Shown here one piece after another: positions 17,822 to 49,196 of a stretch of 49,196 nucleotides of DNA (position 1 is the stretch's first letter; every line of letters begins with the position of its first letter). Under the pieces are notes generated by a model. It had not been told where the DNA came from, did no database searches, and saw only the letters and a list, made by a program, of their open reading frames with translations. The DNA is taken from assembly GCA_024278275.1 (NCBI GenBank), contig JAJRTN010000125.1, positions 1-49,196 on the forward strand. Reading direction: 5' to 3'. The position numbers and the translations under genes were made by a program. The stretch comes from Candidatus Hydrogenedentota bacterium. Its GTDB lineage: Bacteria; Hydrogenedentota; Hydrogenedentia; Hydrogenedentales; JAJRTN01.

Positions 17822-17850
17822 GCGTTTGTTCTGATGGACGTTCGTGGATG

Positions 17851-20602: not shown

Positions 20603-22039
20603 TTATTCGTACAGCCGGACCCTTGCGTAGTGGATGCCTTTTCCTTCCGCATGGGTGCCGAGGAGATCAACCATTCTCGATGGCGGTGACCCGGCACGGA
20701 CCGTGGCCGTGAAGTAGTTGTTCATCGGGAAGCGTAGCGGCACGCGAAGTGGTGGACCGGGTGTTCCCTCCGAATCAAGCTCGAGTATCCGGTTCTCCGA
20801 AACCGGCCGGCCTGCGGTGTCCGTGCCGCCGACGTAATAGAAGACGAAAAGGCGATTGTCCGGCGTGGCTTGAAAACGGGGCCGCGCGGGGATCTCCGCC
20901 GACTTGCCTTCCTCGGCCAGCATCAGGGTGCGACGCGTTACCACGTTGCCTTCGCGGACCACGGCGTATTTCATGGCGTGACGCTGTACGGCATCCGGGA
21001 AGAAACGTTCGCGCAGCCGCTCGTCAATCGCGCGCTCGGTCCAGACGATATGCGCCGCGCCGTCGGGCGCCAGCCAAAGATCTCCCGGAGTAATCCGTCC
21101 GCCGGTCTTGTCGGTGCTGGCAATCTCGAGCCAGTCATTGAACCGTCCCGTCAGGATATCCGGTGACCACGTGTAAAACAGTCTGCGGAAATCGTAATCC
21201 CACTTGCGCCCCGTAAGCTCATGCTTAAACGCGCGCCACGCCTCGTAAGGTTCCATAATATCGCTCACCCCGCAGAAATACACCGCGCGGTTCTTCAACG
21301 CCACATTGGGGTAGCAGACTCGGATCGGCTGGGGCGTGTCGTATTCCGCGCCCCACGGCCACTTCAACTTTCCTTGACTCAGCCATTGGCCATCGCTGCT
21401 TCGAAAGGCCCATTCCGCGTGGGTATAACCGATGTTCTGGAAGAGGATGAGTTCGCGGGCAACGCCGTCGGCGGCGAAGCTGCGGTAGGAGTGTTCGGTG
21501 AATTCCGGCGTACCGTCCCAGACCGGCAGAATGATCGTGGGCGTTTTCCTTGGGTCCGCCGTGACGAATTCCAGGATTGCCGGGCGGGCGGGACCACCGT
21601 ACTGGCTTGGATCGCTCACCAGGGTCGGGTTGACCGACAAGAAGAGGCGTCCATCGGGAAACACGGCGAGTGGAGACGGTTCCCGCGTTCTATCCTTCGG
21701 ATCAGCGCCCACCTGTCGCCATCCGCTCTTGTCACGCTGGAACAGCGTCCAACGGCAGTTGTTAAGCGGTCTGGCGTTCTCGAGGAGCTCTATCCCGCTG
21801 GCGAAGAGATTGTCCCCGATGCGAACCAGGCACGTCGAACCGTGACACCACATGGGCCCGGCGCCGTTGTTGGCCGGCTCATACTGGTAGACCATCTCCT
21901 CCGCTTCCACCACCGGCTGGAGGGGGGAAGGTTCCGCGGCGGAACCCAATGGACTGAAAACGATGGTCAGAAACATGGCGCAGACCGAGCCGCGGCCTAT
22001 TCGAGGAGCCCCGTTCAATTTCGCGCAACTGTCTGACAT
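20603..22039 (-). CDS. hypothetical exported protein
   Basis: The start is at MSDSC..RIGRGSVCAMFLTIVFSPLGSA, a signal peptide. No domain was recognised by eye. It sits at the edge of the glycan-degradation cluster. Confidence 0.4.
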   Translation of the reverse strand: MSDSCAKLNGAPRIGRGSVCAMFLTIVFSPLGSAAEPSPLQPVVEAEEMVYQYEPANNGAGPMWCHGSTCLVRIGDNLFASGIELLENARPLNNCRWTLFQRDKSGWRQVGADPKDRTREPSPLAVFPDGRLFLSVNPTLVSDPSQYGGPARPAILEFVTADPRKTPTIILPVWDGTPEFTEHSYRSFAADGVARELILFQNIGYTHAEWAFRSSDGQWLSQGKLKWPWGAEYDTPQPIRVCYPNVALKNRAVYFCGVSDIMEPYEAWRAFKHELTGRKWDYDFRRLFYTWSPDILTGRFNDWLEIASTDKTGGRITPGDLWLAPDGAAHIVWTERAIDERLRERFFPDAVQRHAMKYAVVREGNVVTRRTLMLAEEGKSAEIPARPRFQATPDNRLFVFYYVGGTDTAGRPVSENRILELDSEGTPGPPLRVPLRFPMNNYFTATVRAGSPPSRMVDLLGTHAEGKGIHYARVRLYE

Positions 22040-22719
22040 GAAAAGAATCCTTTCCTGGATAGTCCTAAAAAAAGCGGGGAAGTTCAGGGCCATGACACAC
22101 GCTTCAGTCCCTTCCCCGTGAAGTCCTGTACAGATGGTCACGAAAACGTGTCGTTGCCTTCGCCATTCCCGCGAACGGGGGAATCACTGAAAAAGAGCGA
22201 AGTCACGCCGTCGCCCCACCGGCTTCTCCCCGATGCGTGGCATGACCCTATTCCCTGCCAGTTTACGGCACGCCCATGGCGTACTACCTTTTGAAGTATC
22301 CAGCCTATCACTGTTCGCCGGAATTTGGAAGGGCCCTTTTCCGGCGTGTTATTTGCGAAAAGGTGATTTTCAGCAGGACCACCGCATGATCCGGTATGTT
22401 GCGGCTCGACGAGCCGAAACATACGAAATACCGGGACCGAACGCGGTCCTACGGATGGCACGTAAAGCGAGCCTCCATTTCGCAAATGCCTCACCAAACC
22501 CAAACCTTGACAACGGGACCATCATGTCGTAAAACAGATCGATGGCGCGCCAAAGCCCACCCCACAAAACTTTCATCCCTCGCCCGCGAACAGGAATACT
22601 ATGAGAGGGGGGCTGTTTCTGGATGGCTTGCATATCAACCGACACGTTCCTTCGCGGGAATGGCGGCAGGGCGGTGCATGGGGCGCGCGGTCAAACACGG
22701 AGGAAAAACGGTGGGCAAG

Positions 22720-31619: not shown

Positions 31620-31790
31620 TTCACCTTGGCGGATCTGGCTTTCCCCGTTCATGCCCGGCCCCAGCGTGGCGGTATTCCAACATACCCATAGGGTTGTCGC
31701 GCCCTTCGATATCCGGTCCCGTCCGCGGAACTCGAAGCATTTCGAGTTCTCGGTGTGCATGCGTATCGGAACGGACATGACGGCAAATCC

Positions 31791-33995
31791 TCAGGGCTTC
31801 CGCAGGGTGAATGGCGTGTCCACGCGCAACGGGACCGGCGTATCCAGGGGTACGTCGGCGTGGTCTCGCGCGAGGGGAAACTTTGTTCGGGCGCCTTCCG
31901 CGATGATCGTCAGGATATGATCGCCCTCAACCACGCGGGAAAGGGCCAGGGAATAGCTGTTTTCTCGAATCCCATGGGCCAACAGGTTATTATCCAGCAG
32001 CAGCGTGAAGGAATCAGGCTTCTTTCCGGCCACTTCCCAACGCACCTCCAGGCTGTTCGCCGTCACTACCTGCCCGGGATTCGGCGGGTAAACAGCCAGT
32101 ACGGTGGTCTCCGGCTCCCGCTCCTTGTACAGGGCGATGAGTGCTTGAGCGACATTGAAGCTTTTATACCCCCATCCCCCGTCATCACCGCGATACCCGT
32201 CCGCGGTTAACGAGACGGGCTCGATGTCGTCGGAGAGTTCCACGCTGTAGGTGTCGCCGTAGAGGTTGCCGGGGTAGGGATAACCCTCAAGCTGGCCGGT
32301 GAACTCGTTCCACTGATGGAGCAGGACGAAGCGCGGTTTGTGCTTCAAAGCCGTTTTGAACGTGTGAATCAGCGTGGTACCGTTTCGGCGGCCCCATGCA
32401 TCATCGGCAAGCCACATACGTGAGCCAAAAAAGCCCGCGGAAGGTGTACAAACCTCCGCCACGCCATCGCGATAGGTGACCACCGGGTCCGGCGTCCCGT
32501 CCATCCAAGACCAGTAGCCGTGGCGGTCTACCTTCGTGAGCTGGAGTTGGGCGCCCATGTAGCGAATGGTGAAATGAGTATCGTCGATGGGGGTGTCGAA
32601 GGCTTCCCAGGCGGGAACGACGGTATTGTGCAGCAATACGATGAGCGGTTTCCCGTCCACCATCACCCACAGTCCTTTGAAGCGGGGATTTCGGATGAAG
32701 TGGTTGTGGAGCCATTCGAGCTCTTCGTTGACGGTCTCCGGGCTGTTAACGGGACCATTTCCGAGGAAGGGCATGATGACCAACTGGGGTGCGGGATAGC
32801 CTTCATCCCGGAGTTGCGCATACACCTCAAGCGTGACTTCGGTCGAATGAATCTGCAAGTTCGCCGCGTCCGAACGGTTCTCCCAATGCTGGCTGCCGTC
32901 TTCCGCGGGAGGGATATAGATGGGCCAGTCGGCGGAAATGAAGTCCACGCCCATGTCCATCAGCCAGAGGGCGTGCTGCCGGATAACGTCGGGGTTGTAG
33001 GATTCGTAGAGGCCCACCATGGGCACGGCCTGCGTGTTGTGCCAGTAGAACATCTCCTTGAAAAAGTAGCTGCCCCACTGCATGCCGACGAGATGGTCCG
33101 GGTCGCGCCGTGATGGGATCATTCGGCGGGTTACCTGCACGGTGATGGGTTCCGATACGGTGGCGTTCCCAGGAAGCGGTCTGCCTGCAAAGAGATCATC
33201 GCGCCGCACGCCCCCCGGCCAATCCTCGAAGTGAGCCGCTTTCCATACGGCATCCTGAAGCCTTCCCGGGACCCGAACGGGCTGTCCTTTTTCCACCGGT
33301 TCGGGCCAGGCGGCGGGTGGCGCCTCCCAGGCTTCCCAGCGGCGGTCGGTCACCAGGAGGCGTCGCCGGCCGTCGGTCATGTATTCCAGTTGGACCGCGA
33401 CACCCGCGATGCCGGTTCCCTTCTTCGCCTCCACGGCCAGCATATTGCCGCCGCGGCGGAAAAGCCCCGGCGCCACGGAAGTCGTCGTTGCCGAGTCGAT
33501 TCCTTTCGCCATGGCCAGAAGCGTTCCGTTCAGGTAAATACGCGCCGTGTGGTTTGCCGAAGCCCGGAGGCGCGCGGCATCGACCGGCGCTGTTTCCTGG
33601 AAGCGCGTGGCCAGGAAGGCATTTTCGCACGCGGCGTTCTTGGTCCAGACGATGCAGGTGTCCCTGAAACCGGGCAGGGCGCGCACCTGTACCGAGGCCG
33701 GGCCAACGTTTGGGAAGGGCAGGATGATTCGCCCGTGGCCCTCTTCGCCGGTAACCTCGTGCGCCCCCCAGCGACGCCCGTTTACATAAGCGAGAAGAAG
33801 ACAGGAGGCCAGCGGGGCGGCGGATCGGGCGTCGGAGACCTGAACGTCCAGCGACACGGAGCCGCCCATGGGCACGGTTGTTTTATCGGCGGCGACGTCA
33901 ATGCACACGGGCAACGTTTCCGAAAACGCCACGATAGTTCCTATCATCGCCAGACCGAGGGCGGCCGTGCATTGACGGACCATGGAGTATTGCAC
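31791..33995 (-). CDS. putative glycoside hydrolase (TIM-barrel GH-like), paralogue of 26389-28725
   Basis: A signal peptide is present (AALGLAMIGTIVAFS). Conserved blocks are shared with the 26389 gene (GLWVMVDGKPLIV vs WFRWEGKPLILA, and the YGDTYS region). Confidence 0.45.
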   Translation of the reverse strand: MQYSMVRQCTAALGLAMIGTIVAFSETLPVCIDVAADKTTVPMGGSVSLDVQVSDARSAAPLASCLLLAYVNGRRWGAHEVTGEEGHGRIILPFPNVGPASVQVRALPGFRDTCIVWTKNAACENAFLATRFQETAPVDAARLRASANHTARIYLNGTLLAMAKGIDSATTTSVAPGLFRRGGNMLAVEAKKGTGIAGVAVQLEYMTDGRRRLLVTDRRWEAWEAPPAAWPEPVEKGQPVRVPGRLQDAVWKAAHFEDWPGGVRRDDLFAGRPLPGNATVSEPITVQVTRRMIPSRRDPDHLVGMQWGSYFFKEMFYWHNTQAVPMVGLYESYNPDVIRQHALWLMDMGVDFISADWPIYIPPAEDGSQHWENRSDAANLQIHSTEVTLEVYAQLRDEGYPAPQLVIMPFLGNGPVNSPETVNEELEWLHNHFIRNPRFKGLWVMVDGKPLIVLLHNTVVPAWEAFDTPIDDTHFTIRYMGAQLQLTKVDRHGYWSWMDGTPDPVVTYRDGVAEVCTPSAGFFGSRMWLADDAWGRRNGTTLIHTFKTALKHKPRFVLLHQWNEFTGQLEGYPYPGNLYGDTYSVELSDDIEPVSLTADGYRGDDGGWGYKSFNVAQALIALYKEREPETTVLAVYPPNPGQVVTANSLEVRWEVAGKKPDSFTLLLDNNLLAHGIRENSYSLALSRVVEGDHILTIIAEGARTKFPLARDHADVPLDTPVPLRVDTPFTLRKP

Positions 33996-38746: not shown

Positions 38747-39298
38747 ATCCGGCACGGCCGACCATCGTTTTTTTGACGACCCAAAAGTGCGGCAGGAAAA
38801 GCGGTAACCGTTTACGGCATCCCGCGCCCGCCCTTGGACAATGGGGCCGGTTGGGACCGATAGAGGGAGGATAGAGCTTTGTTTTCTTATGTGACGCTGT
38901 GGAGTCCGTAGGACTTCAATGGAAAAGCGCCGCGGCGCAGACCGCCGTATTATGCTGAAATGACGGTGTTCGCCGTGACATTGGATGGCTTGAGGCCTAC
39001 CGGCCTCACAGCCGAGGGCGGCTGTGCCACATTCAAGTGAAGACTGCGCCGTGAACAGTTACGCTTTCACGGGGATAACGATCCTGGTGATGTTGCCGGT
39101 AACGTTCTTGGCGCACGGCTTCGCGGGTCACGTGACAATTCAGGCGAGACGCCCGCGATAGTCTCTTACCAGTACATTTCTTTACAAATAGGCACGAAAA
39201 GGTGATTGCATCTTTTCCTTGGCCCCAGGGTTCTCCGTGGAGACAAAAACCTGGTTCCGGCTTGGCCGGGTTAGGCGTTCCCGCGGGGGACCGTGGGA

Positions 39299-40801
39299 AT
39301 GAGGAAGAAAAGGGCTGACGCAAAAGTGAAGCGGTATCTCGCATTTGACCTGGGCGCCGAAAGCGGGCGTTGCATGTTGGGCCAACTTGACGGCGGCACG
39401 TTGGAAATCACGGAATTGCTCCGTTTCCCCAACGGTCCGGTCAACGTGAACGGCACCCTCTATTGGGATATCCTCGGCATCTACAAGAATATGCTGGAGG
39501 GGTTGTCCCTCTTCGCGCGGCGGTACGGACCGGAAGCCGATGGCATCGGCGTGGATAGCTGGGCCCTGGACTTCGGCCTCCTGGACAAGCAGGACAACCT
39601 TTTACAGAATCCCGTTTGCTACCGGGACGGGCGCACCGAGGGCATGGTGGAGGCGGTGTCGGCCACGGTGGAGCCCGGGGAAATTTTTCGTCGCACGGGC
39701 CTCAACGTGAACGCCATTCACACGTTGTTCCAACTGAAGGCCGTCGCCGAACGCAGCCCGGAGGTGCTCGAACGGACGGCTTGCCTGCTCAACATCCCCA
39801 GTTTGCTGGCCTGCTTCCTGTGCGGGGCGAAGGTGGCGGAGCACACCCTCGCGGGGACCACGCAACTCTACGATCCCCGCACCCGCGCATGGGACGCCGA
39901 ACTGCTGGGAATGCTCGATCTGCCGGTGGAGATTCTTCCGGAGATCGTGGAACCCGGCACGCTCTTGGGTGAATTGAGCGAGGCGGCGAAGGCCGCCACC
40001 GGCCTGACGCATGCGCCCGTTTTTGCCACCTGCACACACGACACGGCGGCGGCCGTGGCCTCGGTGCCGGGGGAGGGCGAGGATTGGGCGTTTATCAGTT
40101 CTGGCACGTGGTCGGTCTTCGGCACGCTCTCGGCCGAAGTGATCACGTCGGACCGTGCCCGCGCGGCGGGCGTGTGCAACGAGCCGGCATTCGGCGGAAA
40201 CTTCGTCTGCAAGAACCTGATGGGCCTGTGGCTGCTTCAACAGGCGCGGGCCTCATGGCGGCGCCAGGGGAAGGAACTCTCCTACGGGGAACTCGCGGCG
40301 GCGGCGTGGGAAGCACCCAAAGGGGGGCCGCTGGTATCGGTGGCGCACCCCGGTTTCCTCGTCCCGTCCGACATGGTGGAAGAGATTCAGCGCTTCTGCC
40401 GGGCCACCGGACAGACCGCGCCGGATTCCGTGCCCGAGGTAACCCGCTGCATTCTTGAGAGCCTGGCGCTCTGCTATCGGCAAAGCCTGGAGGATTTGAG
40501 GGCTGTCACGGGAAAAAGTATCAACCGGATTCACGTGGTGGGTGGCGGTTCACTCAACCAACCCCTGTGCCGGTTTACCGCGGCGGCTTGTGGCGTACCC
40601 GTGGCCGCGGGCCCGAAGCAGGCCACCGCCGCGGGGAACCTGCTGACCCAGGCCGCCGCCGAACTGGGCGGTCCGGAGGGAATCCGGTCCGTCGTAAAAA
40701 ACTCATTCCCCCTGAAAACATACGGGCCGGTCGATGACGACGGGTACTGGAAGAAGCGTTACGAAACGTATCTGCGAATCGAAGCATCGGGGCTTTCCTG
40801 A
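39299..40801 (+). CDS. rhaB: FGGY-family sugar kinase, best match rhamnulokinase
   Basis: Conserved blocks resemble E. coli RhaB (comparison from memory): AFDLGAESGRCML, GVDSWALDFGLLD, YRDGRTEG, NLMGLWLLQ, CILESLALCY and IHVVGGGSLN. The start is at the internal ATG, not the GTG at 39293. Confidence 0.75.
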   Translation: MRKKRADAKVKRYLAFDLGAESGRCMLGQLDGGTLEITELLRFPNGPVNVNGTLYWDILGIYKNMLEGLSLFARRYGPEADGIGVDSWALDFGLLDKQDNLLQNPVCYRDGRTEGMVEAVSATVEPGEIFRRTGLNVNAIHTLFQLKAVAERSPEVLERTACLLNIPSLLACFLCGAKVAEHTLAGTTQLYDPRTRAWDAELLGMLDLPVEILPEIVEPGTLLGELSEAAKAATGLTHAPVFATCTHDTAAAVASVPGEGEDWAFISSGTWSVFGTLSAEVITSDRARAAGVCNEPAFGGNFVCKNLMGLWLLQQARASWRRQGKELSYGELAAAAWEAPKGGPLVSVAHPGFLVPSDMVEEIQRFCRATGQTAPDSVPEVTRCILESLALCYRQSLEDLRAVTGKSINRIHVVGGGSLNQPLCRFTAAACGVPVAAGPKQATAAGNLLTQAAAELGGPEGIRSVVKNSFPLKTYGPVDDDGYWKKRYETYLRIEASGLS

Positions 40802-40816
40802 ACGGAGGACCAAGCC

Positions 40817-41797
40817 ATGTTGAAGGACTACTACTTTGGCGCCTGTCTGCCGACCTTTGGCAACTGCGCGGACCGCTATTGCCAAGGCGGCTACAAGCGT
40901 GATTTCACGATGGACGAGATGCTGGACCGCTCGCTGGAAGTGGGCAGCATCGACGGGCTGGAGTTGGTGGGCAACTGGCATGTCAACGATGGGAATGTGC
41001 GCGAAGTGGCGCAAAAGTTCAGGGACAGAAACCTGAAGATCCCCATGCTGGTGCCCGATCTCTGGACACAGGCGAAATGGGGCAAGGGCAGCCTCGCGGC
41101 GTCGGACGCCGCGACCCGGCAGGCCGCCATCGACGAAGTGCGGAAGGTCATGGACTGGGCCGCCGAACTCGATTGTCCCTACGTGGATGTCTGGCCGGGG
41201 CAGGATGGCTTCGACTACCCCTTCCAGGCGGACTACGTTTCGGCCTGGTCGTGGCTGCGTGAGGGCATCGCCGCGTGCGCGGGCCACAACGACCAGGTGA
41301 AGGTGCTGGTGGAGTACAAGCTCAAGGAGCCCCGCCGTCACTGCTTTATCGACAGCGCGGCGCGGACGCTGATGCTCCTGGACGGCATCGATAACACGGG
41401 GGTGCTCCTGGACGTGGGTCATGCCATGGCGGCGGGAGAAAACATCGCGGAGGCCGTGGCATTTCTGAACGCCTACGGCAAGCTGGATTACCTGCACCTG
41501 AACGACAACTACCGCGCCTGGGACGACGACATGATTTTCGGTTCGGTGAATCTCATCGAGGATCTGGAATTGCTGTACTGGCTCAAGCGTGTCGGGTACC
41601 AGGGCTGGCTCACCCTCGACATCTTTCCCTTCCGCATCGACGGTGTCGATGCGGCGAAGGCGTGTCAAAGCTGGATAGACGGCCTGCTCAACGCGCTGGA
41701 GAAGGTTGGCCAGGCGTCTTTTGACGTGGCCGTGGCCTCGGGTGATCCCGTGCAGGCGGGCGTCATTATCCGGGAAGCGCTTGGACTGGGCCGGTAG
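40817..41797 (+). CDS. sugar (phosphate) isomerase/epimerase, xylose-isomerase-like TIM barrel
   Basis: The protein is 326 aa with a pattern of acidic and His metal ligands typical of AP-endonuclease-2 / xylose-isomerase-like TIM barrels (VLVEYKLKEP, LLDVGH, LHLNDN). The stop is TAG. Confidence 0.65.
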   Translation: MLKDYYFGACLPTFGNCADRYCQGGYKRDFTMDEMLDRSLEVGSIDGLELVGNWHVNDGNVREVAQKFRDRNLKIPMLVPDLWTQAKWGKGSLAASDAATRQAAIDEVRKVMDWAAELDCPYVDVWPGQDGFDYPFQADYVSAWSWLREGIAACAGHNDQVKVLVEYKLKEPRRHCFIDSAARTLMLLDGIDNTGVLLDVGHAMAAGENIAEAVAFLNAYGKLDYLHLNDNYRAWDDDMIFGSVNLIEDLELLYWLKRVGYQGWLTLDIFPFRIDGVDAAKACQSWIDGLLNALEKVGQASFDVAVASGDPVQAGVIIREALGLGR

Positions 41798-41818
41798 GCG
41801 GAAGGGGATTATCGAATC

Positions 41819-42076
41819 ATGGCGACAGCAATCAAGATCCCGGACATGGGAACCACCGTGGACACCATGGTCCTGGAGACCTGGCTTGTCGAGGAAGGTG
41901 AAACCATCGACCGCGGCGACGTGATCGCCGAGATCCAGACCGACAAGGCCCTCACGGACCTGGAGTCTTTCGCGCGCGGCACGTTACTGAAGAAAATGGT
42001 GACCGAAGGCGCCGAGGTTCAGGTGGGGGACGTGATCGCCTACCTGGGAGAACCCGGCGAGGAAATCCCCGGATGA
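41819..42076 (+). CDS. stand-alone lipoyl-attachment domain protein (E2-type lipoyl carrier, 85 aa)
   Basis: The lipoyl-lysine motif is AEIQTDKALTDLES, within a biotinyl/lipoyl hybrid-barrel pattern (IKIPDMG...GETIDRGDVIAEI). No E2 catalytic domain follows. It is in the same reading frame as the upstream isomerase, separated by TAG plus 7 codons. Confidence 0.75.
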   Translation: MATAIKIPDMGTTVDTMVLETWLVEEGETIDRGDVIAEIQTDKALTDLESFARGTLLKKMVTEGAEVQVGDVIAYLGEPGEEIPG

Positions 42077-42096
42077 CCCCGGGAAAGGAAGAATAC

Positions 42097-43062
42097 ATGC
42101 CGTCGAAGTATGAGCCGACTTTTCTGCTGGACCTGTACCGGAAGATGGTCCTCATCCGGCAGTTCGAGGACCGGGTGAAGTTCCTCTTTCTGGAGGGCAT
42201 CATGCCGGGCACCATCCACCAGTACCAGGGACAGGAGGCGATAGCCGCGGGGGTTTGCGCCGCGCTGAATACTGACGACATCATCACCAGCACCCACCGT
42301 CCCCATGGCCACGCGCTGGCGAAGGGCCTTAGCGCCGAATCGCTGCTGCACGAGCTTTTCGGGAAACCTTCCGGGTGTTGTTGTGGCAAGGGGGGCTCCA
42401 TGCACGTGGGCGACCTGGAAAAGGGGATGCTGCCCGCCATTGCCATCGTGGGCGGAGGCGTGCCCATCGCCACGGGCTGCGCCCTGGCCTTCAAGATGCG
42501 CGGCGAAAAACGGGTGGCGGTCAGCTTTTCGGGCGACGGCGCCGTGAACGAGGGCGCCTTCCACGAGGGCGTCAACATGGGCGCCATCTGGGATCTCCCC
42601 GTCATTTACGTCATCGAGAACAACCTGTATTCGGCCTCCACGCCCATCGCCGACACGGTGAAGCTTGAAAAGGTTTCCGACCGGGCCGCGGGCTACGGCA
42701 TACCGGGGGTCACGGTGGACGGCAACGATGTGGTCGCCATGTATGAAGCGGCGCGGGGCGCGGTGGAACGGGCACGCAACGGGGAGGGGCCCACCTTGAT
42801 CGAGGCTGTCACCTACCGCATCACGGGCCATTCCCGGCGAGACCCCTGCAACTATCAGCCCAAGGAGCAGCGCCGGGAGGCCAGGAAGCGGGAACCCATC
42901 AGGCGATTCGCCAGGTACCTGGTGGAGAAGGGGCTGGTCACCGAGGCCGAGCTGGACATGTTCCGCGAGGAGATTGACGCAGAGATCGAACGCGCCGTGG
43001 AATCCGCCCAGGCCGCGCCGGACCCGGCTCCCGAGTTCGCCCTGGAAGGGCTCTGGGCCTGA
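42097..43062 (+). CDS. TPP-dependent dehydrogenase E1 component, alpha subunit (AcoA/PdhA-like)
   Basis: The TPP-binding motif reads GDGAVNEGAFHEGVNMGAIWDLPVIYVIENN. The phosphorylation-loop-like region reads YRITGHSRRD. The start at 42097 has a strong Shine-Dalgarno sequence (GGAAAGGAAG). An alternative ATG at 42073 overlaps the upstream stop by 4 nt. Confidence 0.8.
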   Translation: MPSKYEPTFLLDLYRKMVLIRQFEDRVKFLFLEGIMPGTIHQYQGQEAIAAGVCAALNTDDIITSTHRPHGHALAKGLSAESLLHELFGKPSGCCCGKGGSMHVGDLEKGMLPAIAIVGGGVPIATGCALAFKMRGEKRVAVSFSGDGAVNEGAFHEGVNMGAIWDLPVIYVIENNLYSASTPIADTVKLEKVSDRAAGYGIPGVTVDGNDVVAMYEAARGAVERARNGEGPTLIEAVTYRITGHSRRDPCNYQPKEQRREARKREPIRRFARYLVEKGLVTEAELDMFREEIDAEIERAVESAQAAPDPAPEFALEGLWA

Positions 43063-43108
43063 GATCACCGGAACATTACGCGGATTACACGGGAAGAGAG
43101 GTACGGAA

Positions 43109-44125
43109 TTGGCACGATTGAGCATTGCCGAAGCGCTCCGACAGACGCTTCGTGAAGAAATGAACCGGGACGAGCGGGTTTTCTGCATCGGGGAAGACAT
43201 CGCCATTCCCGGCGGCTGGGGCGGCGCTTTCACGGTGACACTGGGCCTGGAGGAGGATTTCAAGGACCGCATGATCAACACGCCCATCTCCGAAGCGGGC
43301 TTCACGGGCGTGGCCCTCGGCGCGGCGCTCATGGGGCTGCGTCCCGTGGCGGACGTGCAGTACGGGGACTTTCTCCTGTGCGCCATGGACCAGATGGTGA
43401 ACCAGGTCGCGAAGATGCGCTACATGTCCGGCGGCAAGATCAAGGTGCCCTTCGTCATGCGCGCGCCCACGGGGGCGACGGGCCGCGGCACGCAGCACGC
43501 GCAAAACCTGGAAAGCATGTTCTTGCAGGCGCCCGGATTCAAGATCGCCTGTCCCGCCACGGCCTACGATGCGGTGGGGCTTTTGCGTGCCGCCATCCGC
43601 GACGACAACCCGGTACTCCTTTTCGAGCACAAGCTGCTCTACGGCTCCAAGGGCGCCCGGGCCGAAACGGGCGCCATGGATGCGTCGAGCGAGATTCCCG
43701 AAGAGGATTACGTCGTGCCGCTGGGCAAGGGCATCGTGCGCCGCGAAGGGAGCGACATCACGGTGATCGCCCCGCTGCTCATGATGCACCGGGCCCTGGA
43801 GGCCGCGGAGATCCTGGCGGATGAAGGCGTATCGGTCGAAGTCATCGACCCGCGCAGTCTCGTGCCCTTCGATTGGGAACTGGTGGAAACCTCGGTGCGG
43901 AAGACCGGGCGCCTCGTGGTGGCCCAGGAAGGTCCCTTGCGCGGAGGGCTGTGCGGCGACATTGCCGCCGAGATGGGCGAACGCTGCTTTGATGCGCTCA
44001 AGGCCCCCGTGCTCCGGGTGGCCTCGCCGGACATCCCCGCGCCCTTCGCCCCGGCGATGGAGGCCTTCTACCGCCCTGACGCGGCGCGGATCGTGGATGC
44101 GGTCCGGAAAACCGTAAAGGATTGA
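43109..44125 (+). CDS. TPP-dependent dehydrogenase E1 component, beta subunit (transketolase-like Pyr and C domains)
   Basis: A TTG start is inferred from the conserved N-terminus (ARLSIAEALRQTLREEMNRDERVFCIGEDI). Further motifs are GFTGVALGAALMGLRPV and MRAPTGATGRG. Confidence 0.75.
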   Translation: MARLSIAEALRQTLREEMNRDERVFCIGEDIAIPGGWGGAFTVTLGLEEDFKDRMINTPISEAGFTGVALGAALMGLRPVADVQYGDFLLCAMDQMVNQVAKMRYMSGGKIKVPFVMRAPTGATGRGTQHAQNLESMFLQAPGFKIACPATAYDAVGLLRAAIRDDNPVLLFEHKLLYGSKGARAETGAMDASSEIPEEDYVVPLGKGIVRREGSDITVIAPLLMMHRALEAAEILADEGVSVEVIDPRSLVPFDWELVETSVRKTGRLVVAQEGPLRGGLCGDIAAEMGERCFDALKAPVLRVASPDIPAPFAPAMEAFYRPDAARIVDAVRKTVKD

Positions 44126-44135
44126 GGGGACAAGC

Positions 44136-44741
44136 ATGGCGGAACTGCGCAGCTATATCGTGATCGACAGTTTGCAGGAGCAGTTGGCGGCGTTCATGGC
44201 CTCCACGGTGGTAGGCTACATGCCCGTGGCGGGCATGGCGGCCCTTTTCGTGGAGGTGGCGCCCGGCATGGAGATCGTGCGCCTCCTCGACGTGGCCGTG
44301 AAGGCCACCAACACGCGGCCCGCCATCCAGGTGGTCGAGCGCAGCTTCGGCACCCTCGAAGTTCACTCCGAAAACCAGGGCGACGTTCGGCAGGCGGGCC
44401 GGGCCGTGCTCGACGCCATGGGGCTTACCGAGGCCGACCGGGACGAACCCCGGGTGGCCTCGTCCACGGTCATTCGGCACATCGATCCCTACCAGGCCGC
44501 GCTGATCAACAAGAGCCGGCAGGGGAGCATGTTGCTTGCGGGGCAGACGGTGTTCATACTGGAGACCCAGCCGGCGTTGTACGCCGTGCTGGCGGCCAAC
44601 TAGGCGGAAAAGGCAAGCCGCGTCACGTTGGTGGATATCCGCCCCTTCGGCAATTTCGGCCGGCTATACCTGGCCGGGGAAGAAGCGGACGTGGTCGTGG
44701 GAAGCGAGGCCGCCATCGCGGCCCTGGAAACATGCCGCTAG
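44136..44741 (+). pseudogene. tandem BMC-domain shell protein (BMC-T-like), reading frame interrupted by in-frame TAG at 44601-44603
   Basis: A GAGGGGA Shine-Dalgarno sequence precedes the start. The first, divergent BMC-like domain reads AALFVEVAPGMEIVRLLDVAVKATNTRPAIQVVERSFGTLEVHSENQGDVRQAGRAVLDAMG. After ...ILETQPALYAVLAAN-TAG the same frame continues AEKASRVTLVDIRPFGNFGRLYLAGEEADVVVGSEAAIAALE. This completes a canonical BMC fold (cf. [27 protein letters not shown]...[13 protein letters not shown]). As annotated to the first TAG the product is 155 aa; read-through would give 201 aa. Confidence 0.5.
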
Positions 44742-44777
44742 CGGTTCATTACGGATGGAAAACCGGGAGATCAGGTC

Positions 44778-45071
44778 ATGGCTGATGCGTTGGGTATGAT
44801 TGAATGCAAGGGATTCGCGGCGATGGTTGAGGCATCGGACGCGATGGTGAAGGCCGCCAAGGTGGAACTGGTGGGCTACGAGAAGATCGGCGGCGGCTAC
44901 GTGACGGCCATCGTGCGCGGCGACGTGGCCGCGGTCAAGGCGGCCTGCGAGGCGGGCGAACGGGGCGCTCGTGCCGTGGGCGAGGTCGTTTCGGTGCATA
45001 TCATCCCGCGGCCCCACGACAACGTGGATTCCGCACTCCCCCTGGGCCGCCCCCAGGCCGTCAAGAAATAG
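44778..45071 (+). CDS. BMC-H hexameric shell protein (PduA/EutM-like)
   Basis: The sequence [64 protein letters not shown]...VHIIPRPH is a textbook Pfam00936 match. The stop is TAG. Confidence 0.9.
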
Positions 45072-45114
45072 CGCCCCGGGCGACACACGCACGATCCCAT
45101 GGAGATAAAGCCCC

Positions 45115-45426
45115 ATGCAAATTGGACGCGTTATCGGGACGGTCGTCTCGACCGCGAAGGAACCGGCGCTGGAAGGCCGTAGATTCCTGCTGGTCCAGTT
45201 CCTCGACCTCGACGCACGAACAACTTCCTCCTACGTGGTGGCGGTGGATGCCGTCGGCGCGGGCACGGGCGAGGTGGTTCTCGTCGCCACGGGCAGTTCC
45301 GCGCGCCAGACGGAGACCACGAGCAATCGGCCTTGCGACGCGGTTGTCATGGCCATTATCGACTCGTGGGACGTCCATGACGAGGTGAAGTGGCGCAAGG
45401 CCGATGATACGCCGGGAGACGGGTGA
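45115..45426 (+). CDS. BMC-P vertex protein (EutN/CcmL/PduN family), copy 1
   Basis: The N-terminus is MQIGRVIGTVVSTAK. Further motifs are FLLVQ and VAVDAVGAGTGEVVLVATGSSAR. Confidence 0.85.
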   Translation: MQIGRVIGTVVSTAKEPALEGRRFLLVQFLDLDARTTSSYVVAVDAVGAGTGEVVLVATGSSARQTETTSNRPCDAVVMAIIDSWDVHDEVKWRKADDTPGDG

Positions 45427-46823
45427 TGCCTGTTTCTCCCAACGACATAGAGCAGGCCGTTCGTGAAGTCCTCAAGCGAATCGAGGGCGAAGGTGAAACC
45501 CCCGGCCCGGTGTCGTCTCCGGCGGTGGATGACGCGGTGGAACGCGCGCGCCGCGCCTACGACGCCTACTGCGGCATGGGCCTCAACAAGCGCCATGAGA
45601 TGGTCGCCGCCATGCGGGAAGCGGCCAAGGCCCATGTGAAGACCTTCGCTGCGGATGCCGTGCGCGAAACCGGGCTCGGGCGGGTCGAGGACAAGATCCG
45701 CAAGAACCTGCTGGTCATCGTGAAAACGCCCGGCCCGGAAATACTCACCCCCGCCGCGCAAACAGGCGACCATGGCTTGATGCTGACGGAGCGCGCCCCA
45801 CACGGGGTTATCGGATCCATCACCCCGTGTACCAATCCCACCGAAACGGTGATCAACAACGCCATCAGCATGGTGAGCGGCGGAAACGGCGTGGTCTTCA
45901 ACGCCCATCCCGCCGCGGCCAAGTGCTCACAGGAGTGCATCCGGGTGCTGTCGGAGGCCATCGTCGCCGCGGGCGGACCGCCCGACCTGGTCGTGGGCGT
46001 GGAACAGCCCACCATAGAGACCGCCAGGGCCCTCATGGGGAGTCCCGGCGTGGCCCTCCTGTGTGTTACCGGCGGCGCGGCCGTGGTGAAGGCCGCCATG
46101 CTGTCCGGCAAGAAAGTGGTCGCGGCCGGCCCCGGCAATCCGCCGGTCGTCGTCGATGAGACGGCGGACCTGGCGAAGGCCGCGCGCGCCACGGTCCAGG
46201 GCGCGTCCCTGGACAACAACATCATCTGCGTTTCCGAGAAGGAGGCGGTCGTGGTCGATGCCGTGGCCGATGCCTTCAAACGGCATATGATGGAGGAGGG
46301 CTGTGTCGAGGTCTCCGGTCGCGACCGCGACCGGCTCTGCGACCTGATCTTCGCGTCCCGCGACGGCAACCGGGGCGTAATGAACAAGGATCTGATCGGC
46401 AAGGACGCCAGTGTCATACTGGACCGGATAGGCATCCGCGCCGCGCCGGAAACGCGCCTTGTCATTATGGACGTTCCGGCGGATCATCCGCTCCCCTGGA
46501 CCGAGCAACTCATGCCGGTCTTCCCCATCGTTCGCGTTTCCGACGTGGACGCGGCCATTGGCCTGGCCCTTCGCTACGAGGGCGGCCGACGGCATACCGC
46601 CGTCATGCACTCGCGCAATATCGACAAACTCAGCAAGATGGCCCGCCTGGCCAACTGTTCCATTTACGTGAAGAACGGTTCGTCCCTGGCGGGGCTCGGC
46701 ATGGGGGGCGAAGGCTACACCTCTTTCACGATTGCCAGCCCCACCGGCGAGGGGCTCACCACCGCGGTGAGTTTCACCCGCCTGCGGCGATGCACCCTCG
46801 TGGACGCCTTCAGGATCATATGA
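45426..46823 (+). CDS. CoA-acylating aldehyde dehydrogenase (PduP/EutE family) with N-terminal encapsulation-peptide-like helix
   Basis: The start overlaps the BMC-P stop (GTGATG). The N-terminal amphipathic segment DIEQAVREVLKRIEG is followed by a Gly/Pro-rich linker. The catalytic Cys region reads DNNIICVSEKE, and EGYTSFTIASPTGEG is also present. Confidence 0.85.
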   Translation: MPVSPNDIEQAVREVLKRIEGEGETPGPVSSPAVDDAVERARRAYDAYCGMGLNKRHEMVAAMREAAKAHVKTFAADAVRETGLGRVEDKIRKNLLVIVKTPGPEILTPAAQTGDHGLMLTERAPHGVIGSITPCTNPTETVINNAISMVSGGNGVVFNAHPAAAKCSQECIRVLSEAIVAAGGPPDLVVGVEQPTIETARALMGSPGVALLCVTGGAAVVKAAMLSGKKVVAAGPGNPPVVVDETADLAKAARATVQGASLDNNIICVSEKEAVVVDAVADAFKRHMMEEGCVEVSGRDRDRLCDLIFASRDGNRGVMNKDLIGKDASVILDRIGIRAAPETRLVIMDVPADHPLPWTEQLMPVFPIVRVSDVDAAIGLALRYEGGRRHTAVMHSRNIDKLSKMARLANCSIYVKNGSSLAGLGMGGEGYTSFTIASPTGEGLTTAVSFTRLRRCTLVDAFRII

Positions 46824-47386
46824 TGAGCATTCTCGGCCTCATGGAATTCGACGGCATCACGCCGGGCATGATCGCCACTGACGCCATGGTCAAGCGGGCG
46901 CCGGTGACCGTGTTGGAAACCGGCCCCATCGACCCGGGAAAGTACCTTACGGTCCTCACCGGCGACCTGGCCTGTGTCGAGGAGGCCGTCGCCGCGGGCG
47001 ATGAAAGCGGCGGCGCGCACGTGGTGCGTGGCGTCGTTCTCGCGAACCTGCACGACGGCGTGATCCCCGCGCTGAAGGGCGAGGCCCCCGACCCGGAACC
47101 GGGCGCCGTGGGCATCGTGGAGACCTCGGACACCGTGGCCGCCGTCCATGCCGCCGACGCCGCCTGCAAAGCCGCCCCGGTGGCGTTGATTACGTTGCAC
47201 CTCGCCCGTCACATCGGCGGCAAGGGCTACCTGGTGATGGTGGGCGTTCTCGCCGATGTCGAAGCGTCGGAACAGGCCGCGCGGGAGGCGGCCGCACGGT
47301 CCCTCGTGGATTCCACCGTCATCCCGCAGCCCGACGAAGCGTTCTTCGCGCGCTTGTTGCGGCCGGCGCCGTTCCGGAGGCTGTGA
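46820..47386 (+). CDS. BMC-T tandem-domain shell protein, PduT-like
   Basis: An ATGA overlap links it to the aldehyde dehydrogenase. Domain 1 reads ILGLMEFDGITPGMIATDAMVKRAPVTVLETGPIDPGKYLTVLTGDLACVEEAV. Domain 2 reads AVGIVETSDTVAAVHAADAACKAAPVALITLHLARHIGGKGYLVMVGVLADVEASEQAA. Confidence 0.75.
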   Translation: MMSILGLMEFDGITPGMIATDAMVKRAPVTVLETGPIDPGKYLTVLTGDLACVEEAVAAGDESGGAHVVRGVVLANLHDGVIPALKGEAPDPEPGAVGIVETSDTVAAVHAADAACKAAPVALITLHLARHIGGKGYLVMVGVLADVEASEQAAREAAARSLVDSTVIPQPDEAFFARLLRPAPFRRL

Positions 47387-47670
47387 AACCGGTGATTCCC
47401 GCGCGCGTCATAGGCAGACTCGTTCCGGCCGCCACGCTGGCGGCCTTCAAGGGCGTTCCCTTTCTCATCGTGCAACCGGTGGACGAACACCTCCAGGACC
47501 GCGGCGCTCCGAAAGTGGCCTGCGACGCCATCGGGGCCAACGTGGGCGAAGTGGTGTTCATGGCACAGGGCGGCGAGGCGACCTTTCCGCTTCCGGAGCC
47601 CTTCAACCCCTCGGACACCACCATCGTGGCCATCGTGGACGAAGTCACCCCGGCCGGAGAAACGTCATGA
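47383..47670 (+). CDS. BMC-P vertex protein (EutN/CcmL family), copy 2
   Basis: A GTG start overlaps the BMC-T stop (GTGA). Motifs are IPARVIGRLVPAAT, FLIVQPV and VACDAIGANVGEVVFMAQGGEA. Confidence 0.75.
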   Translation: MKPVIPARVIGRLVPAATLAAFKGVPFLIVQPVDEHLQDRGAPKVACDAIGANVGEVVFMAQGGEATFPLPEPFNPSDTTIVAIVDEVTPAGETS

Positions 47671-47939
47671 AACTGGCGCGCGTTCTCGCACAAGTTGTGG
47701 CCACCCGGAAGCACCCCTTCTATCACGGACGCAAGACCTTCATGGTGCGGACACTCGACCTGGAGGGAAAGGAGACCGGGCCCGCCTTTGTCGCCGTGGA
47801 CCGCGTCCAGGCGGGCGTGGGCGACCGCGTGTTGCTCATGCAGGACGGCGGGTCCGCACGTATCATGTTCGACGCGCCCGAGGGGCCGGTGCGGAGCACC
47901 ATCGTGGGCATCGTGGATGCCGTGGAGATGACAGAATGA
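47667..47939 (+). CDS. BMC-P vertex protein (EutN/CcmL family), copy 3
   Basis: An ATGA overlap links it to copy 2. Motifs are MKLARVLAQVVATRK, FMVRTLD and VAVDRVQAGVGDRVLLMQDGGSAR. Confidence 0.8.
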   Translation: MKLARVLAQVVATRKHPFYHGRKTFMVRTLDLEGKETGPAFVAVDRVQAGVGDRVLLMQDGGSARIMFDAPEGPVRSTIVGIVDAVEMTE

Positions 47940-48688
47940 CGGAACTGGAACAGCGAAAAGCGGTCTGCGATGTAGGCCGCCGACTCTATGAGAAAAACCT
48001 CGCCCTCGCGACGGACGGAAACATCAGCATCCGCCTCGGACCCGACCGCTATCTCTGCACGCCCAGCGGCGTGCCCAAGGGATTCATGAAACCGAATGAC
48101 CTGCTCGTCGCGGACGGCGCGGGCCGCAAATTGTCGGGCGCGGGCAAGGTCACGAGCGAGTTCAACACCCACCTCGTGTGTTACCGCGAACGGCCCGACA
48201 TTCATGCCGTGGTCCATGCCCATCCTCCCAAGGCCATCGGGCTCAGCATCGCGGAAATCGATCTGACCGAACTCGTCCTCCCCGAGGTGGTTTACACCAT
48301 CGGCGGAATCCCCACCTCCGGCTACGCCACGCCGGGCACCACGGAAGGGGGCGAAGCCATCGTGGACCTCATCCGGCAGTGCGACGCGGTCATGCTCGAC
48401 CGGCATGGCGCGGTCACCGTGGGACAGGATGTGTACGATGCCCTCTTCAAGATGGAGAAAGTGGAAACGGCGGCCGAGTCTCTGCTCATCGCACACCTCC
48501 TGGGCAATGTGCGAAGCCTGGACCGGCAACAGGTGGAAAAGCTCGAAGCCGTTCGCGAGGCCTACAACCCCCATGGCAGGGCCTACACCGAGGCCGGCGC
48601 CGAGGACGCCCTCGCTCCGGGCGCGGCGAACACCCCCGAGCTGGACCGCATCATCGCGGAAACATTGCAGACCCTGGGCTTGGCCTGA
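47936..48688 (+). CDS. class II aldolase/adducin-family protein (rhamnulose-1-P / fuculose-1-P aldolase-like)
   Basis: An ATGA overlap links it to BMC-P copy 3. The metal-binding His cluster reads HAVVHAHPP...HG. The phosphate-binding N-terminal region reads GNISIRL...TPSG. Confidence 0.8.
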   Translation: MTELEQRKAVCDVGRRLYEKNLALATDGNISIRLGPDRYLCTPSGVPKGFMKPNDLLVADGAGRKLSGAGKVTSEFNTHLVCYRERPDIHAVVHAHPPKAIGLSIAEIDLTELVLPEVVYTIGGIPTSGYATPGTTEGGEAIVDLIRQCDAVMLDRHGAVTVGQDVYDALFKMEKVETAAESLLIAHLLGNVRSLDRQQVEKLEAVREAYNPHGRAYTEAGAEDALAPGAANTPELDRIIAETLQTLGLA

Positions 48689-48781: not shown

Positions 48782-48883
48782 ATGCGAAACAGCAGGGCCA
48801 AGCGCGGTCCTATGGATGGGACGCCCCAAGCCCCAATTAGCGCAAATGTCCCGGGGAACGCCATGGAGAAGGAGAGGACCAAC

Positions 48884-49196
48884 ATGAGCTTTCGGTTTTG
48901 GCGAAGGGTCAAACTCGCGCCCGGGGTGACCCTGAACCTCGGCAAATCGGGCGGGTCTTTTTCGTTTGGACCACGAGGAGCGAAGATCACCCTCGGGACC
49001 CGAGGTAAACGCGCCACGGTGGGACTCCCCGGAGCCTGACCTGACGTCTAGCCGCCTTAGACAACATGGACCCGAGGTAAACGCGCCACGGTGGGACTCC
49101 CCGGAACAGGCATCTTCTACACCACGACTTTTCCGGGCGGAAGCGGGGCGGGCCGGGGAAGCCGATCTTCCGCCGTCGCGCCGCCCCCTTCCATTC
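48884..49196 (+). pseudogene. DUF4236-family protein gene disrupted by a 72-bp repeat-flanked insertion (3' end beyond window)
   Basis: A strong Shine-Dalgarno sequence (GGAGAAGGAGAGG) precedes the start. The N-terminus MSFRFWRRVKLAPGVTLNLGKSGGSFSFGPRGAKITLGTRGKRATVGLPG is a DUF4236 hallmark. The ORF hits TGA at 49037-49039 inside the first repeat copy. The family-typical continuation (TGIFYTTTFPGG...) resumes in frame only after the second repeat copy. Confidence 0.5.
48996..49105. repeat. pair of perfect 38-bp direct repeats separated by a 34-bp unique spacer
   Basis: ggacccgaggtaaacgcgccacggtgggactccccgga occurs at 48996-49033 and again at 49068-49105. The intervening sequence gcctgacctgacgtctagccgccttagacaacat contains stops in all relevant frames. 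Confidence 0.85.

What the first reader, a model, noticed from the sequence alone, without database searches (positions are those of the whole stretch)
48996..49105. Perfect 38-bp direct repeat pair with 34-bp unique spacer disrupting a DUF4236 gene
Deleting one repeat plus the spacer (72 bp, a multiple of 3) restores an uninterrupted DUF4236 reading frame (…GAKITLGTRGKRATVGLPGTGIFYTTT…). The arrangement is therefore an insertion of spacer plus a second repeat copy into an otherwise intact gene. The geometry of a 38-bp repeat with a 34-bp spacer is CRISPR-like, but there are only two copies, no cas genes in view, and the repeat is coding sequence. Alternatives are a footprint of a mobile-element insertion/excision, a slipped duplication, or a misassembly near a contig edge.
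Basis: seen in the sequence. Interest (0 to 1): 0.5.

Follow-up and report, generated by a model that had tools for sequence, protein, structure and literature searches.

The report
72-bp insertion truncating DUF4236 gene
A 34-bp piece of unknown DNA, flanked by a perfect 38-bp duplication of the target, has recently cut an accessory gene of unknown function at the end of a contig; its shape matches what the CRISPR spacer-integrating enzyme leaves at a wrong site, but this cannot be proven from the window, and an assembly error is not excluded.

Summary
GGACCCGAGGTAAACGCGCCACGGTGGGACTCCCCGGA occurs twice, perfectly (48996-49033 and 49068-49105), around a unique 34-nt segment. Removing 72 nt restores a complete DUF4236 domain.

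All 81 homologous genes I recovered read straight through this site, so the insertion is private to this window. It stops the protein at codon 51. The repeat is ordinary coding DNA: homologues share at most 30 of its 38 bases. Two perfect copies therefore mean a recent duplication.

The 34-mer resembles nothing in the window, in the viral, genome or metagenome collections, in phage or plasmid records, or among common adapters. The structure is not a CRISPR array. There are only two copies, the repeat is coding sequence, it matches no Rfam CRISPR repeat family, and no cas genes lie in the 49 kb.

The gene encodes a solitary, horizontally spread protein of about 346 aa (DUF4236 plus TPR). It is absent at this position in the closest relatives of the Hydrogenedentota-like host.

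The best mechanistic fit is a staggered-cut integration. The only characterised bacterial route to a repeat-sized duplication plus a spacer-sized insert is off-target Cas1-Cas2 spacer integration (about 0.35). Rivals are an assembly or library artefact 91 nt from the contig end (about 0.25) and a template-switch or end-joining event (about 0.25). Interest is modest.

The parts
48866..48878 (+). Shine-Dalgarno-like purine stretch (GGAGAAGGAGAGG) 5 nt before the start codon of the DUF4236-TPR gene
   Evidence: Read directly in the sequence. Supports ATG 48884 as the start, which aligns with residue 1 of all homologues.
48884..49039 (+). Reading frame as it now stands: 51 codons of the DUF4236 domain ending at TGA 49037-49039, a stop contributed by the insert
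   Evidence: Pfam DUF4236 match to profile positions 1-49 of 55.
48996..49033 (+). Repeat copy 1 (38 nt). It is native coding sequence for ...(G)TRGKRATVGLPG.
   Evidence: Homologues encode the same peptide with different codons (best 30 of 38 identical, median 26 of 38).
49034..49067 (+). 34-nt inserted segment of unknown origin (GCCTGACCTGACGTCTAGCCGCCTTAGACAACAT). It has 56% GC and three stop codons in the gene's frame.
   Evidence: Unique in the window. No significant similarity to the repeat, the flanks or the rest of the window. No match in viral, genome or metagenome collections as a 34-mer or as 22-mers. No match in phage or plasmid records or to recalled adapters.
49068..49105 (+). 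Repeat copy 2 (38 nt), identical to copy 1. The gene's frame resumes here.
49106..49196 (+). Continuation of the DUF4236-TPR gene (TGIFYTTTFPGGSGAGRGSRSSAVAPPPSI...), now untranslated. It runs off the end of the window.
   Evidence: Full-length homologues are about 346 aa with a C-terminal TPR region. No continuation or second copy lies elsewhere in the window.

Best explanation
A recent, private insertion has turned an accessory DUF4236-TPR gene into a pseudogene. A 34-bp segment of foreign DNA was joined into the chromosome at two nicks 38 bp apart on opposite strands. Gap filling then duplicated the 38 bp between the nicks, giving repeat-insert-repeat. Among characterised bacterial enzymes, only the CRISPR adaptation integrase Cas1-Cas2 inserts a fragment of about 30-40 bp while duplicating a target of about 28-38 bp. 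The most likely reading is therefore an off-target spacer integration outside a CRISPR array, a one-spacer 'neo-CRISPR' unit, by a system whose native repeats are about 37-38 bp and whose spacers are about 34 bp. Shown: the structure, its privacy, the recency of the duplication, the foreignness of the insert and the truncation of the product. Inferred: the staggered-cut mechanism and the enzyme. I put about 0.7 on the insertion existing in real DNA and about half of that on Cas1-Cas2, hence 0.35 overall.
For: 1. The insertion splits into a 38-bp perfect target duplication and a 34-bp unique insert. The 72-bp unit falls in the size range of CRISPR units with repeats of about 36-37 nt (my own knowledge of repeat and spacer length distributions).
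2. The insert is not derived from the locus or from the 49-kb window, as expected for captured foreign DNA.
3. The two copies are identical, while homologues differ at 8 or more of the 38 positions. No homologue has the insertion. The event is therefore recent.
4. Off-target integration by Cas1-Cas2 into non-CRISPR genomic sites, able to seed new arrays, has been demonstrated in E. coli (Nivala et al. 2018, as described in 10.1101/148544, PMC7054753, PMC11788318 and PMC6546382). It has also been shown in vitro for P. furiosus Cas1-Cas2 at non-CRISPR sites sharing features with repeats (PMC6698737).
5. No other such structure exists in 0.79 Mb of window and related loci, so this is not a common by-product of these genomes or assemblies.
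Against: No CRISPR array and no cas gene are visible in the 49 kb, though only part of the ORFs were annotated. The rest of the genome is unavailable, so the key prediction cannot be checked: native repeats of about 38 bp and spacers of about 34 bp. No protospacer was found for the insert in any collection. The 38-mer has no significant hairpin (z = +0.95) and resembles no Rfam CRISPR repeat family. It lacks the pyrimidine-to-purine asymmetry proposed for repeats in a theoretical preprint (with my own count). Repeats of 38 bp are at the long edge of the usual range. The structure lies 91 nt from the contig end, where assembly errors concentrate, and in-gene contig breaks are not typical of this family.
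Confidence: 0.35

Rival explanations
1. Assembly or library artefact. The repeat-insert-repeat path does not exist in the organism's chromosome, or exists only in a few chimeric molecules. It was retained because it sits at the very end of a contig, where graph tips and unresolved branches survive.
For: The structure ends 91 nt before the end of the window, which is probably the contig end given the odd length of 49,196 nt, the absence of terminal overlap and the gene running off. The distance from the start of repeat copy 2 to the contig end is 129 nt. This is close to the k = 127 maximum of several de Bruijn assemblers and hints that the contig stops at a graph junction created at the repeat. 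The repeat length of 38 equals k-1 for k = 39. The insert matches nothing anywhere. Breaks inside this gene are not enriched in the family (4 observed vs 8.4 expected), so biology does not obviously explain the break.
Against: A de Bruijn assembler cannot invent 34 nt. K-mers spanning the end of the repeat, the insert and the start of the repeat must exist in reads, so at least some sequenced molecules carried the structure. The insert does not resemble the adapter and linker sequences I could recall (P = 0.86 against shuffles). It is not a fold-back or a simple tandem duplication, the usual contig-end artefacts. The 129 vs 127 match is inexact and was found after looking at several landmarks.
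Confidence: 0.25
2. A real insertion made by replication or repair rather than an integrase. One route is a polymerase template switch to another DNA molecule for 34 nt, then a return 38 nt upstream of the departure point. The other is Ku/LigD-type end joining of a staggered break with capture of a filler fragment.
For: This gives the same end product: a duplication flanking non-local DNA. It needs no CRISPR system, which agrees with the absence of cas genes in the window. About 10% of family members are truncated or frameshifted, so the gene is dispensable and tolerates lesions of many kinds.
Against: There is no microhomology or similarity between the insert ends and the repeat or its flanks. 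No donor sequence was found in the window. A staggered break with 38-nt overhangs would normally re-anneal. Such events with a clean 38-bp duplication and a filler exactly the size of a spacer are not a documented common class in bacteria (my own knowledge).
Confidence: 0.25
3. Remnant of a mobile element. An integrative element carrying a 38-bp copy of its target (attL/attR direct repeats), or a transposon, inserted here. Nearly all of it was later deleted, leaving 34 bp.
For: The gene is an accessory, horizontally spread gene lying in variable regions near defence and restriction genes in other genomes. Direct repeats of tens of bp are typical of att cores of tyrosine-recombinase elements (my own knowledge).
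Against: The insert has no terminal inverted repeats and no similarity to anything. There is no integrase or transposase nearby. An internal deletion that leaves both 38-bp repeats perfect and only 34 bp between them is improbable. Known transposase target duplications are 2-15 bp (my own knowledge).
Confidence: 0.07
4. A functional unit rather than a lesion. Options are a working one-spacer mini-CRISPR, a reversible on/off switch that restores the gene by deletion between the 38-bp repeats, or a translational bypass (T4 gene 60-like) from the GGA at 49031 to the GGA at 49103.
For: Deletion between the perfect repeats would restore the gene exactly. Identical GGA codons lie at the ends of both repeats, and a stop codon follows one codon after the first.
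Against: It occurs once, in one genome, and no homologue shares it, so there is no sign of selection. The repeat is not CRISPR-like. No stable structure exists in the 72-110-nt unit (z between +0.6 and +1.1). The stop codon is not adjacent to the take-off codon as it is in gene 60. The insert creates no promoter or terminator signal.
Confidence: 0.05

Closest known systems
Off-target ('non-canonical') Cas1-Cas2 spacer integration generating neo-CRISPR units (Nivala, Shipman & Church 2018, Nat Microbiol 3:310; described in 10.1101/148544, PMC7054753, PMC11788318)
   Same: A spacer-sized foreign fragment inserted at a non-CRISPR chromosomal site and flanked by a repeat-sized perfect duplication of the target, yielding a repeat-spacer-repeat unit. 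It can fall in genes and be deleterious.
   Different: That work used over-expressed E. coli type I-E proteins, where my recollection (not checked, since the paper was not held) is a duplication of about 28 bp and spacers of 33 bp. Here the lengths are 38 and 34 bp, the host is an uncultivated Hydrogenedentota-like bacterium, and no Cas1-Cas2, native array or protospacer is in evidence.
In vitro off-target integration by Pyrococcus furiosus Cas1-Cas2 (PMC6698737)
   Same: Full-site integration into non-CRISPR DNA, with the two attacks separated by the repeat length.
   Different: Those off-target sites shared specific sequence features with the native repeat. Here the native repeat is unknown, so the similarity cannot be evaluated.
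Bona fide CRISPR arrays, and the single-spacer mini-arrays carried by viruses and plasmids
   Same: The period of 72 bp and the repeat and spacer lengths are within the CRISPR range.
   Different: There are only two repeats. The repeat is coding sequence of a conserved protein domain, is not palindromic and matches no Rfam CRISPR-DR family. There is no leader, no cas genes in 49 kb and no target for the spacer.
Target-site duplications of DDE transposons and casposons
   Same: A direct duplication of the target flanking inserted DNA, produced by staggered cleavage and gap repair.
   Different: Known duplications are 2-15 bp and the inserted DNA carries terminal inverted repeats and usually genes (my own knowledge). 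Here the duplication is 38 bp and the insert is 34 bp without inverted repeats.

Membership tests
CRISPR array | Three or more regularly spaced copies of the repeat | tested here: not met
   Exactly two copies exist in the window at up to 3 mismatches. After copy 2 the sequence returns to the DUF4236 coding sequence. Only 91 nt remain before the window end.
CRISPR array | Repeat is a dedicated non-coding element, often partly palindromic and similar to known repeat families | tested here: not met
   The repeat encodes the conserved TRGKRATVGLPG of the DUF4236 domain. Its fold is no better than shuffles (z = +0.95). No Rfam CRISPR-DR match at E <= 10.
CRISPR array | cas genes or a leader nearby | tested here: not met
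   No Cas family was found among the 18 window ORFs scanned against Pfam. No array was found by the repeat finders. Smaller ORFs were not scanned, and the sequence downstream of 49196 is unavailable.
CRISPR array | Spacer matches a virus or plasmid | tested here: not met
   No match as a 34-mer or as three overlapping 22-mers in viral contigs. None as a 34-mer in reference genomes. None as a 34-mer or the central 22-mer in metagenomes. None by blastn in phage or plasmid records.
Off-target Cas1-Cas2 integration product (neo-CRISPR unit) | Spacer-sized insert flanked by a perfect, repeat-sized duplication of the target | tested here: met
   A 34-nt insert and a 38-nt perfect duplication with sharp boundaries.
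Off-target Cas1-Cas2 integration product (neo-CRISPR unit) | Insert is foreign to the integration locus | tested here: met
   No significant similarity to the repeat, the flanks or the other 49 kb (P > 0.8 against shuffles).
Off-target Cas1-Cas2 integration product (neo-CRISPR unit) | Host encodes Cas1-Cas2, and its native arrays have the same repeat length (about 38) and spacer length (about 34) | not testable with these tools
   The window's genome is not retrievable. Exact products of window genes are not on record, the 34-mer finds not even the window's own contig in the collections, and the closest aldolase is only 88% identical.
Off-target Cas1-Cas2 integration product (neo-CRISPR unit) | Integration site shares sequence features with the native repeat or leader-repeat junction | not testable with these tools
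   The native repeat is unknown.
DUF4236 (Pfam PF14020) protein | Profile match above the gathering threshold | tested here: met
   The restored product scores 72.9 bits and the as-is product 65.2 bits, against a cut-off of 27.
Slipped-strand tandem duplication | The whole inserted unit is a copy of adjacent sequence | tested here: not met
   Only 38 of the 72 nt are a copy. The other 34 nt are unrelated to either flank. Tandem Repeats Finder reports nothing here.
Transposon or IS footprint | Terminal inverted repeats, a short (2-15 bp) target duplication, similarity to known elements | tested here: not met
   No inverted repeats lie at the insert ends. The duplication is 38 bp. No similarity to plasmid or phage records.
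Programmed translational bypass (T4 gene 60 type) | Matched take-off and landing codons, a stop codon immediately after take-off, a stable take-off hairpin | tested here: inconclusive
   Matched GGA codons exist trivially because of the repeat. The stop lies one codon after GGA rather than adjacent to it. No structure is more stable than shuffles. Function cannot be tested here.

The most novel reading that the evidence does not exclude
The structure is a naturally occurring ectopic integration of a short DNA fragment with a 38-bp staggered target cut, caught soon after it happened. It would be either the birth of a CRISPR-like unit inside a protein-coding gene of an uncultivated phylum or, more radically, the product of an unknown integrase that inserts oligonucleotide-sized DNA independently of any CRISPR array.
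Probability: 0.3. Interest if true: 0.55.

Novelty: new member of a known kind. Interest (0 to 1): 0.3.

Why it matters
Off-target spacer integration has been shown in the laboratory with over-expressed Cas1-Cas2. Natural examples are few and circumstantial. A clean natural case inside a conserved gene, with both perfect repeats and the pre-insertion sequence inferable from homologues, would document two things: the cost of CRISPR adaptation (gene inactivation) and the raw material from which new arrays might arise. If instead the structure is an assembly artefact, it is a useful example of a false two-repeat 'CRISPR' at a contig edge. In either case the biological consequence for this organism is small, namely the loss of one dispensable accessory gene of unknown function.

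Tried and rejected
**Source of the insert**
- Exact 34-mer scans of viral contigs, reference genomes and metagenomes all gave zero hits.
- Overlapping 22-mers in viral contigs and the central 22-mer in metagenomes gave zero.
- blastn against phage and plasmid records gave no match.
- Gapped alignment to the rest of the window, to the restored locus and to the repeat scored no better than shuffles.
- Comparison with about 25 adapter, linker and vector sequences recalled from memory scored no better than shuffles. This is a weak screen.

**Recovering the source genome or sequence beyond the window**
- The exact products of the aldolase and of the truncated gene are not on record.
- The nearest relatives are 88% and 85% identical in the aldolase and do not carry the gene at this position.
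- The exact 38-mer is absent from viral contigs.

**CRISPR features**
- No array or tandem structure.
- No Rfam CRISPR-DR similarity.
- No significant repeat hairpin.
- The purine/pyrimidine asymmetry criterion of a 2026 preprint is not met by my count.

**Similar events in the family**
- None of the 81 genes has an insertion at this site.
- No comparable repeat-spacer-repeat and no CRISPR array lies within about 6 kb of any family member.

**Other checks**
- Circular contig or second gene copy in the window: none.
- Conserved partner genes of the family: none. Neighbour clusters occur in at most 5 of 81 loci.
- PADLOC defence families: no hit for the full-length protein.
- The primary paper on neo-CRISPR (PMC5832444) is not held, so its details are cited second-hand.

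Full report
**The observation**

The window contains GGACCCGAGGTAAACGCGCCACGGTGGGACTCCCCGGA twice, without a mismatch, at 48996-49033 and 49068-49105. The copies are separated by the 34-nt segment GCCTGACCTGACGTCTAGCCGCCTTAGACAACAT. The bases just outside the copies differ on both sides, so the repeat is exactly 38 nt and the inserted unit exactly 72 nt. Neither sequence occurs elsewhere in the window with up to three mismatches, and shuffles give none. The chance expectation of such a repeat is about 1e-15.

**The gene**

The reading frame begins at ATG 48884, behind a GGAGAAGGAGAGG ribosome-binding stretch, and reads MSFRFWRRVKLAPGVTLNLGKSGGSFSFGPRGAKITLGTRGKRATVGLPGA. It stops at a TGA that belongs to the insert.

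Removing one repeat plus the insert gives ...TVGLPGTGIFYTTTFPGG.... This matches Pfam DUF4236 over the whole profile (72.9 bits, positions 1-55 of 55). The sequence as it stands reaches only position 49. The frame then runs off the end of the window.

Homologues show that the complete protein is about 346 aa: the DUF4236 domain, a variable linker and a TPR region. It has no hit in PADLOC. Only its N-terminal domain hits phage families of unknown function.

**Insertion or family feature?**

A protein search returned 31 relatives that are 49-83% identical. A genome scan returned 80 loci from more than ten phyla, including one archaeal bin. Every aligned protein and every one of the 81 aligned gene sequences is continuous across the site. 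The only private insertion there is the window's.

At the DNA level the nearest homologue is 74-79% identical. Within the 38-nt stretch the best homologue shares 30 of 38 bases and the median is 26. The 38-mer is therefore ordinary coding sequence that drifts at synonymous positions. Two perfect copies side by side mean a recent duplication.

**The insert**

- It is not a copy of either flank, of the repeat or of anything else in the 49 kb. Alignment scores are below the mean of shuffles. That rules out a simple slipped tandem duplication.
- It has no terminal inverted repeats.
- It has no exact match as a 34-mer in viral contigs, 185,579 reference genomes or JGI metagenomes.
- It has no match as overlapping 22-mers.
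- It has no blastn match in phage or plasmid records.
- It does not resemble the adapters and linkers I could list from memory.
- Its origin is unknown.

**Not a CRISPR array**

- There are two copies only.
- The repeat is coding sequence.
- The repeat folds no better than shuffles.
- It matches no Rfam family at E <= 10.
- The window has no array, tRNA or known RNA.
- The 18 window ORFs I scanned against Pfam contain no Cas protein, integrase or transposase. They comprise sulfatase, PKD, GH3-LysM and a Planctomycetes/Verrucomicrobia-type microcompartment operon.

**Context**

- The best hits of the adjacent class II aldolase are from Candidatus Hydrogenedentota.
- The closest relatives, with 88% and 85% identical aldolases, share the whole operon. 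After the aldolase they have a sulfatase or a MASE3 protein, not this gene. The DUF4236-TPR gene is therefore an accessory arrival here.
- Elsewhere the family sits in variable regions next to BREX, MmeI-like, Vsr and type I restriction genes. It has no conserved neighbour.
- About 10% of copies are truncated or frameshifted.
- Contigs break just upstream of the gene about 2.5 times more often than expected (14 vs 5.7 within 700 nt, P about 0.002). Breaks inside the gene, as in the window, are not enriched (4 vs 8.4).

**Mechanism**

A perfect duplication of the target flanking non-local DNA is the signature of joining at two nicks offset on opposite strands, followed by gap repair. Transposases make offsets of 2-15 bp (my own knowledge).

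The one characterised bacterial enzyme that inserts a fragment of about 30-40 bp and duplicates about 28-38 bp is Cas1-Cas2. It is known to integrate at non-CRISPR sites in vivo when over-expressed, seeding new arrays (Nivala 2018, as described in the papers read). It also does so in vitro (PMC6698737). The 38 + 34 bp geometry fits systems with repeats of about 37 nt.

I therefore favour an off-target spacer integration, at about 0.35. What is missing is everything outside the window: a cas1-cas2 locus, native repeat and spacer lengths, and a protospacer.

**Rivals**

- **Artefact (about 0.25).** The structure lies 91 nt from the contig end. The distance from the second repeat to the end (129 nt) is suspiciously close to a common maximum k of 127. 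Against this, an assembler cannot invent the 34 nt, so some sequenced molecules must have carried it. The pattern is also not one of the usual contig-end artefacts.
- **Template switch or end joining with filler DNA (about 0.25).** This gives the same product but lacks any microhomology or donor.
- **Remnant of an integrative element (about 0.07).**
- **A functional unit such as a mini-array, a reversible switch or translational bypass (about 0.05).** These last two have little support, because the structure is unique to one genome and shows no specialised features.

**Verdict**

The consequence is a pseudogene. The mechanism is unresolved, with off-target CRISPR adaptation as the leading candidate. 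Novelty is at most a new natural example of a known kind. Interest is modest (0.3) until reads and the rest of the genome are examined.

Noticed in passing
L034, L035, L052 (also L048, L054, L069); alignment columns 309-339, 689-719, 928-1126 of the gene alignment: Other DUF4236-TPR genes carry small private in-frame insertions of a different kind. A 30-nt perfect palindrome, CCTG(T/C)CTGCGTGC(G/C)GGCACGCACAGGCAGG, lies at the same site in L034 and L035 and at a different site in L052. L048 and L054 share a 75-nt in-frame insertion with two hairpins, and L069 has a 93-nt one. These look like REP/RPE-like palindromic mini-elements inserting in frame into coding sequence, mostly in hydrothermal-sediment Desulfobacterota bins.
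   Followed up: no
L001-L084: The ~346-aa DUF4236-TPR protein is 62-83% identical in its first 80 residues across more than ten phyla: Desulfobacterota, Gammaproteobacteria, Planctomycetota, Nitrospirota, Firmicutes, Spirochaetota, Fibrobacterota, Hydrogenedentota and a Syntrophoarchaeum bin. It travels without any conserved neighbour, often sits beside restriction, BREX or Vsr genes, and is truncated in about 10% of loci. It has no PADLOC hit, and the only paper mentioning DUF4236 concerns Salmonella isolates. This is an unusually conserved, solitary, horizontally spread gene of unknown function.
   Followed up: partly
L005-L084; L001, L002: Contigs end within 700 nt upstream of this gene 14 times against 5.7 expected (P about 0.002). 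In two Dissulfurirhabdus thermomarina isolate assemblies the gene, preceded by a DUF2188 gene, is cut by the contig end next to two different defence islands. This suggests multiple copies per genome or a boundary with hypervariable DNA.
   Followed up: partly
window 49068-49196: The distance from the first base of repeat copy 2 to the end of the window is 129 nt, close to k = 127, the maximum k of SPAdes-type assemblers. This may mean the contig stops at a graph junction where an uninterrupted allele or a paralogue joins. It cannot be tested without reads.
   Followed up: no
window 16093-16620 (- strand gene 15362-18016): About 8-11 copies of a 48-nt tandem repeat (92% matches) encode a 16-aa acidic, proline-rich unit (PVDVAEEAPGPVEETP). 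It forms a linker in a glycoside hydrolase family 3 protein with C-terminal LysM domains.
   Followed up: yes
window 39293-48688: A Planctomycetes/Verrucomicrobia-type bacterial microcompartment operon: FGGY sugar kinase, xylose-isomerase-like TIM barrel, transketolase-like E1 subunits, BMC shell proteins, EutN/CcmL vertex proteins, aldehyde dehydrogenase and class II aldolase. Its order is conserved in the nearest relatives (L085), which additionally have a RuBisCO-large-like gene upstream.
   Followed up: partly
window 20603-22141, 26389-28725, 28758-31778, 31791-33995 (- strand): Four large ORFs (511-1005 aa), three of them consecutive, have no Pfam match at E <= 1e-5. They were not examined further.
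   Followed up: no
window 11312-11336 and 39252-39276 (weaker copy at 6757-6781): A 25-nt sequence containing a small GC hairpin (TGGTTCCGGCTACGCCGGGTTAGGC) recurs at 92% identity 28 kb apart. It could be a short intergenic repeat or a terminator motif.
   Followed up: no
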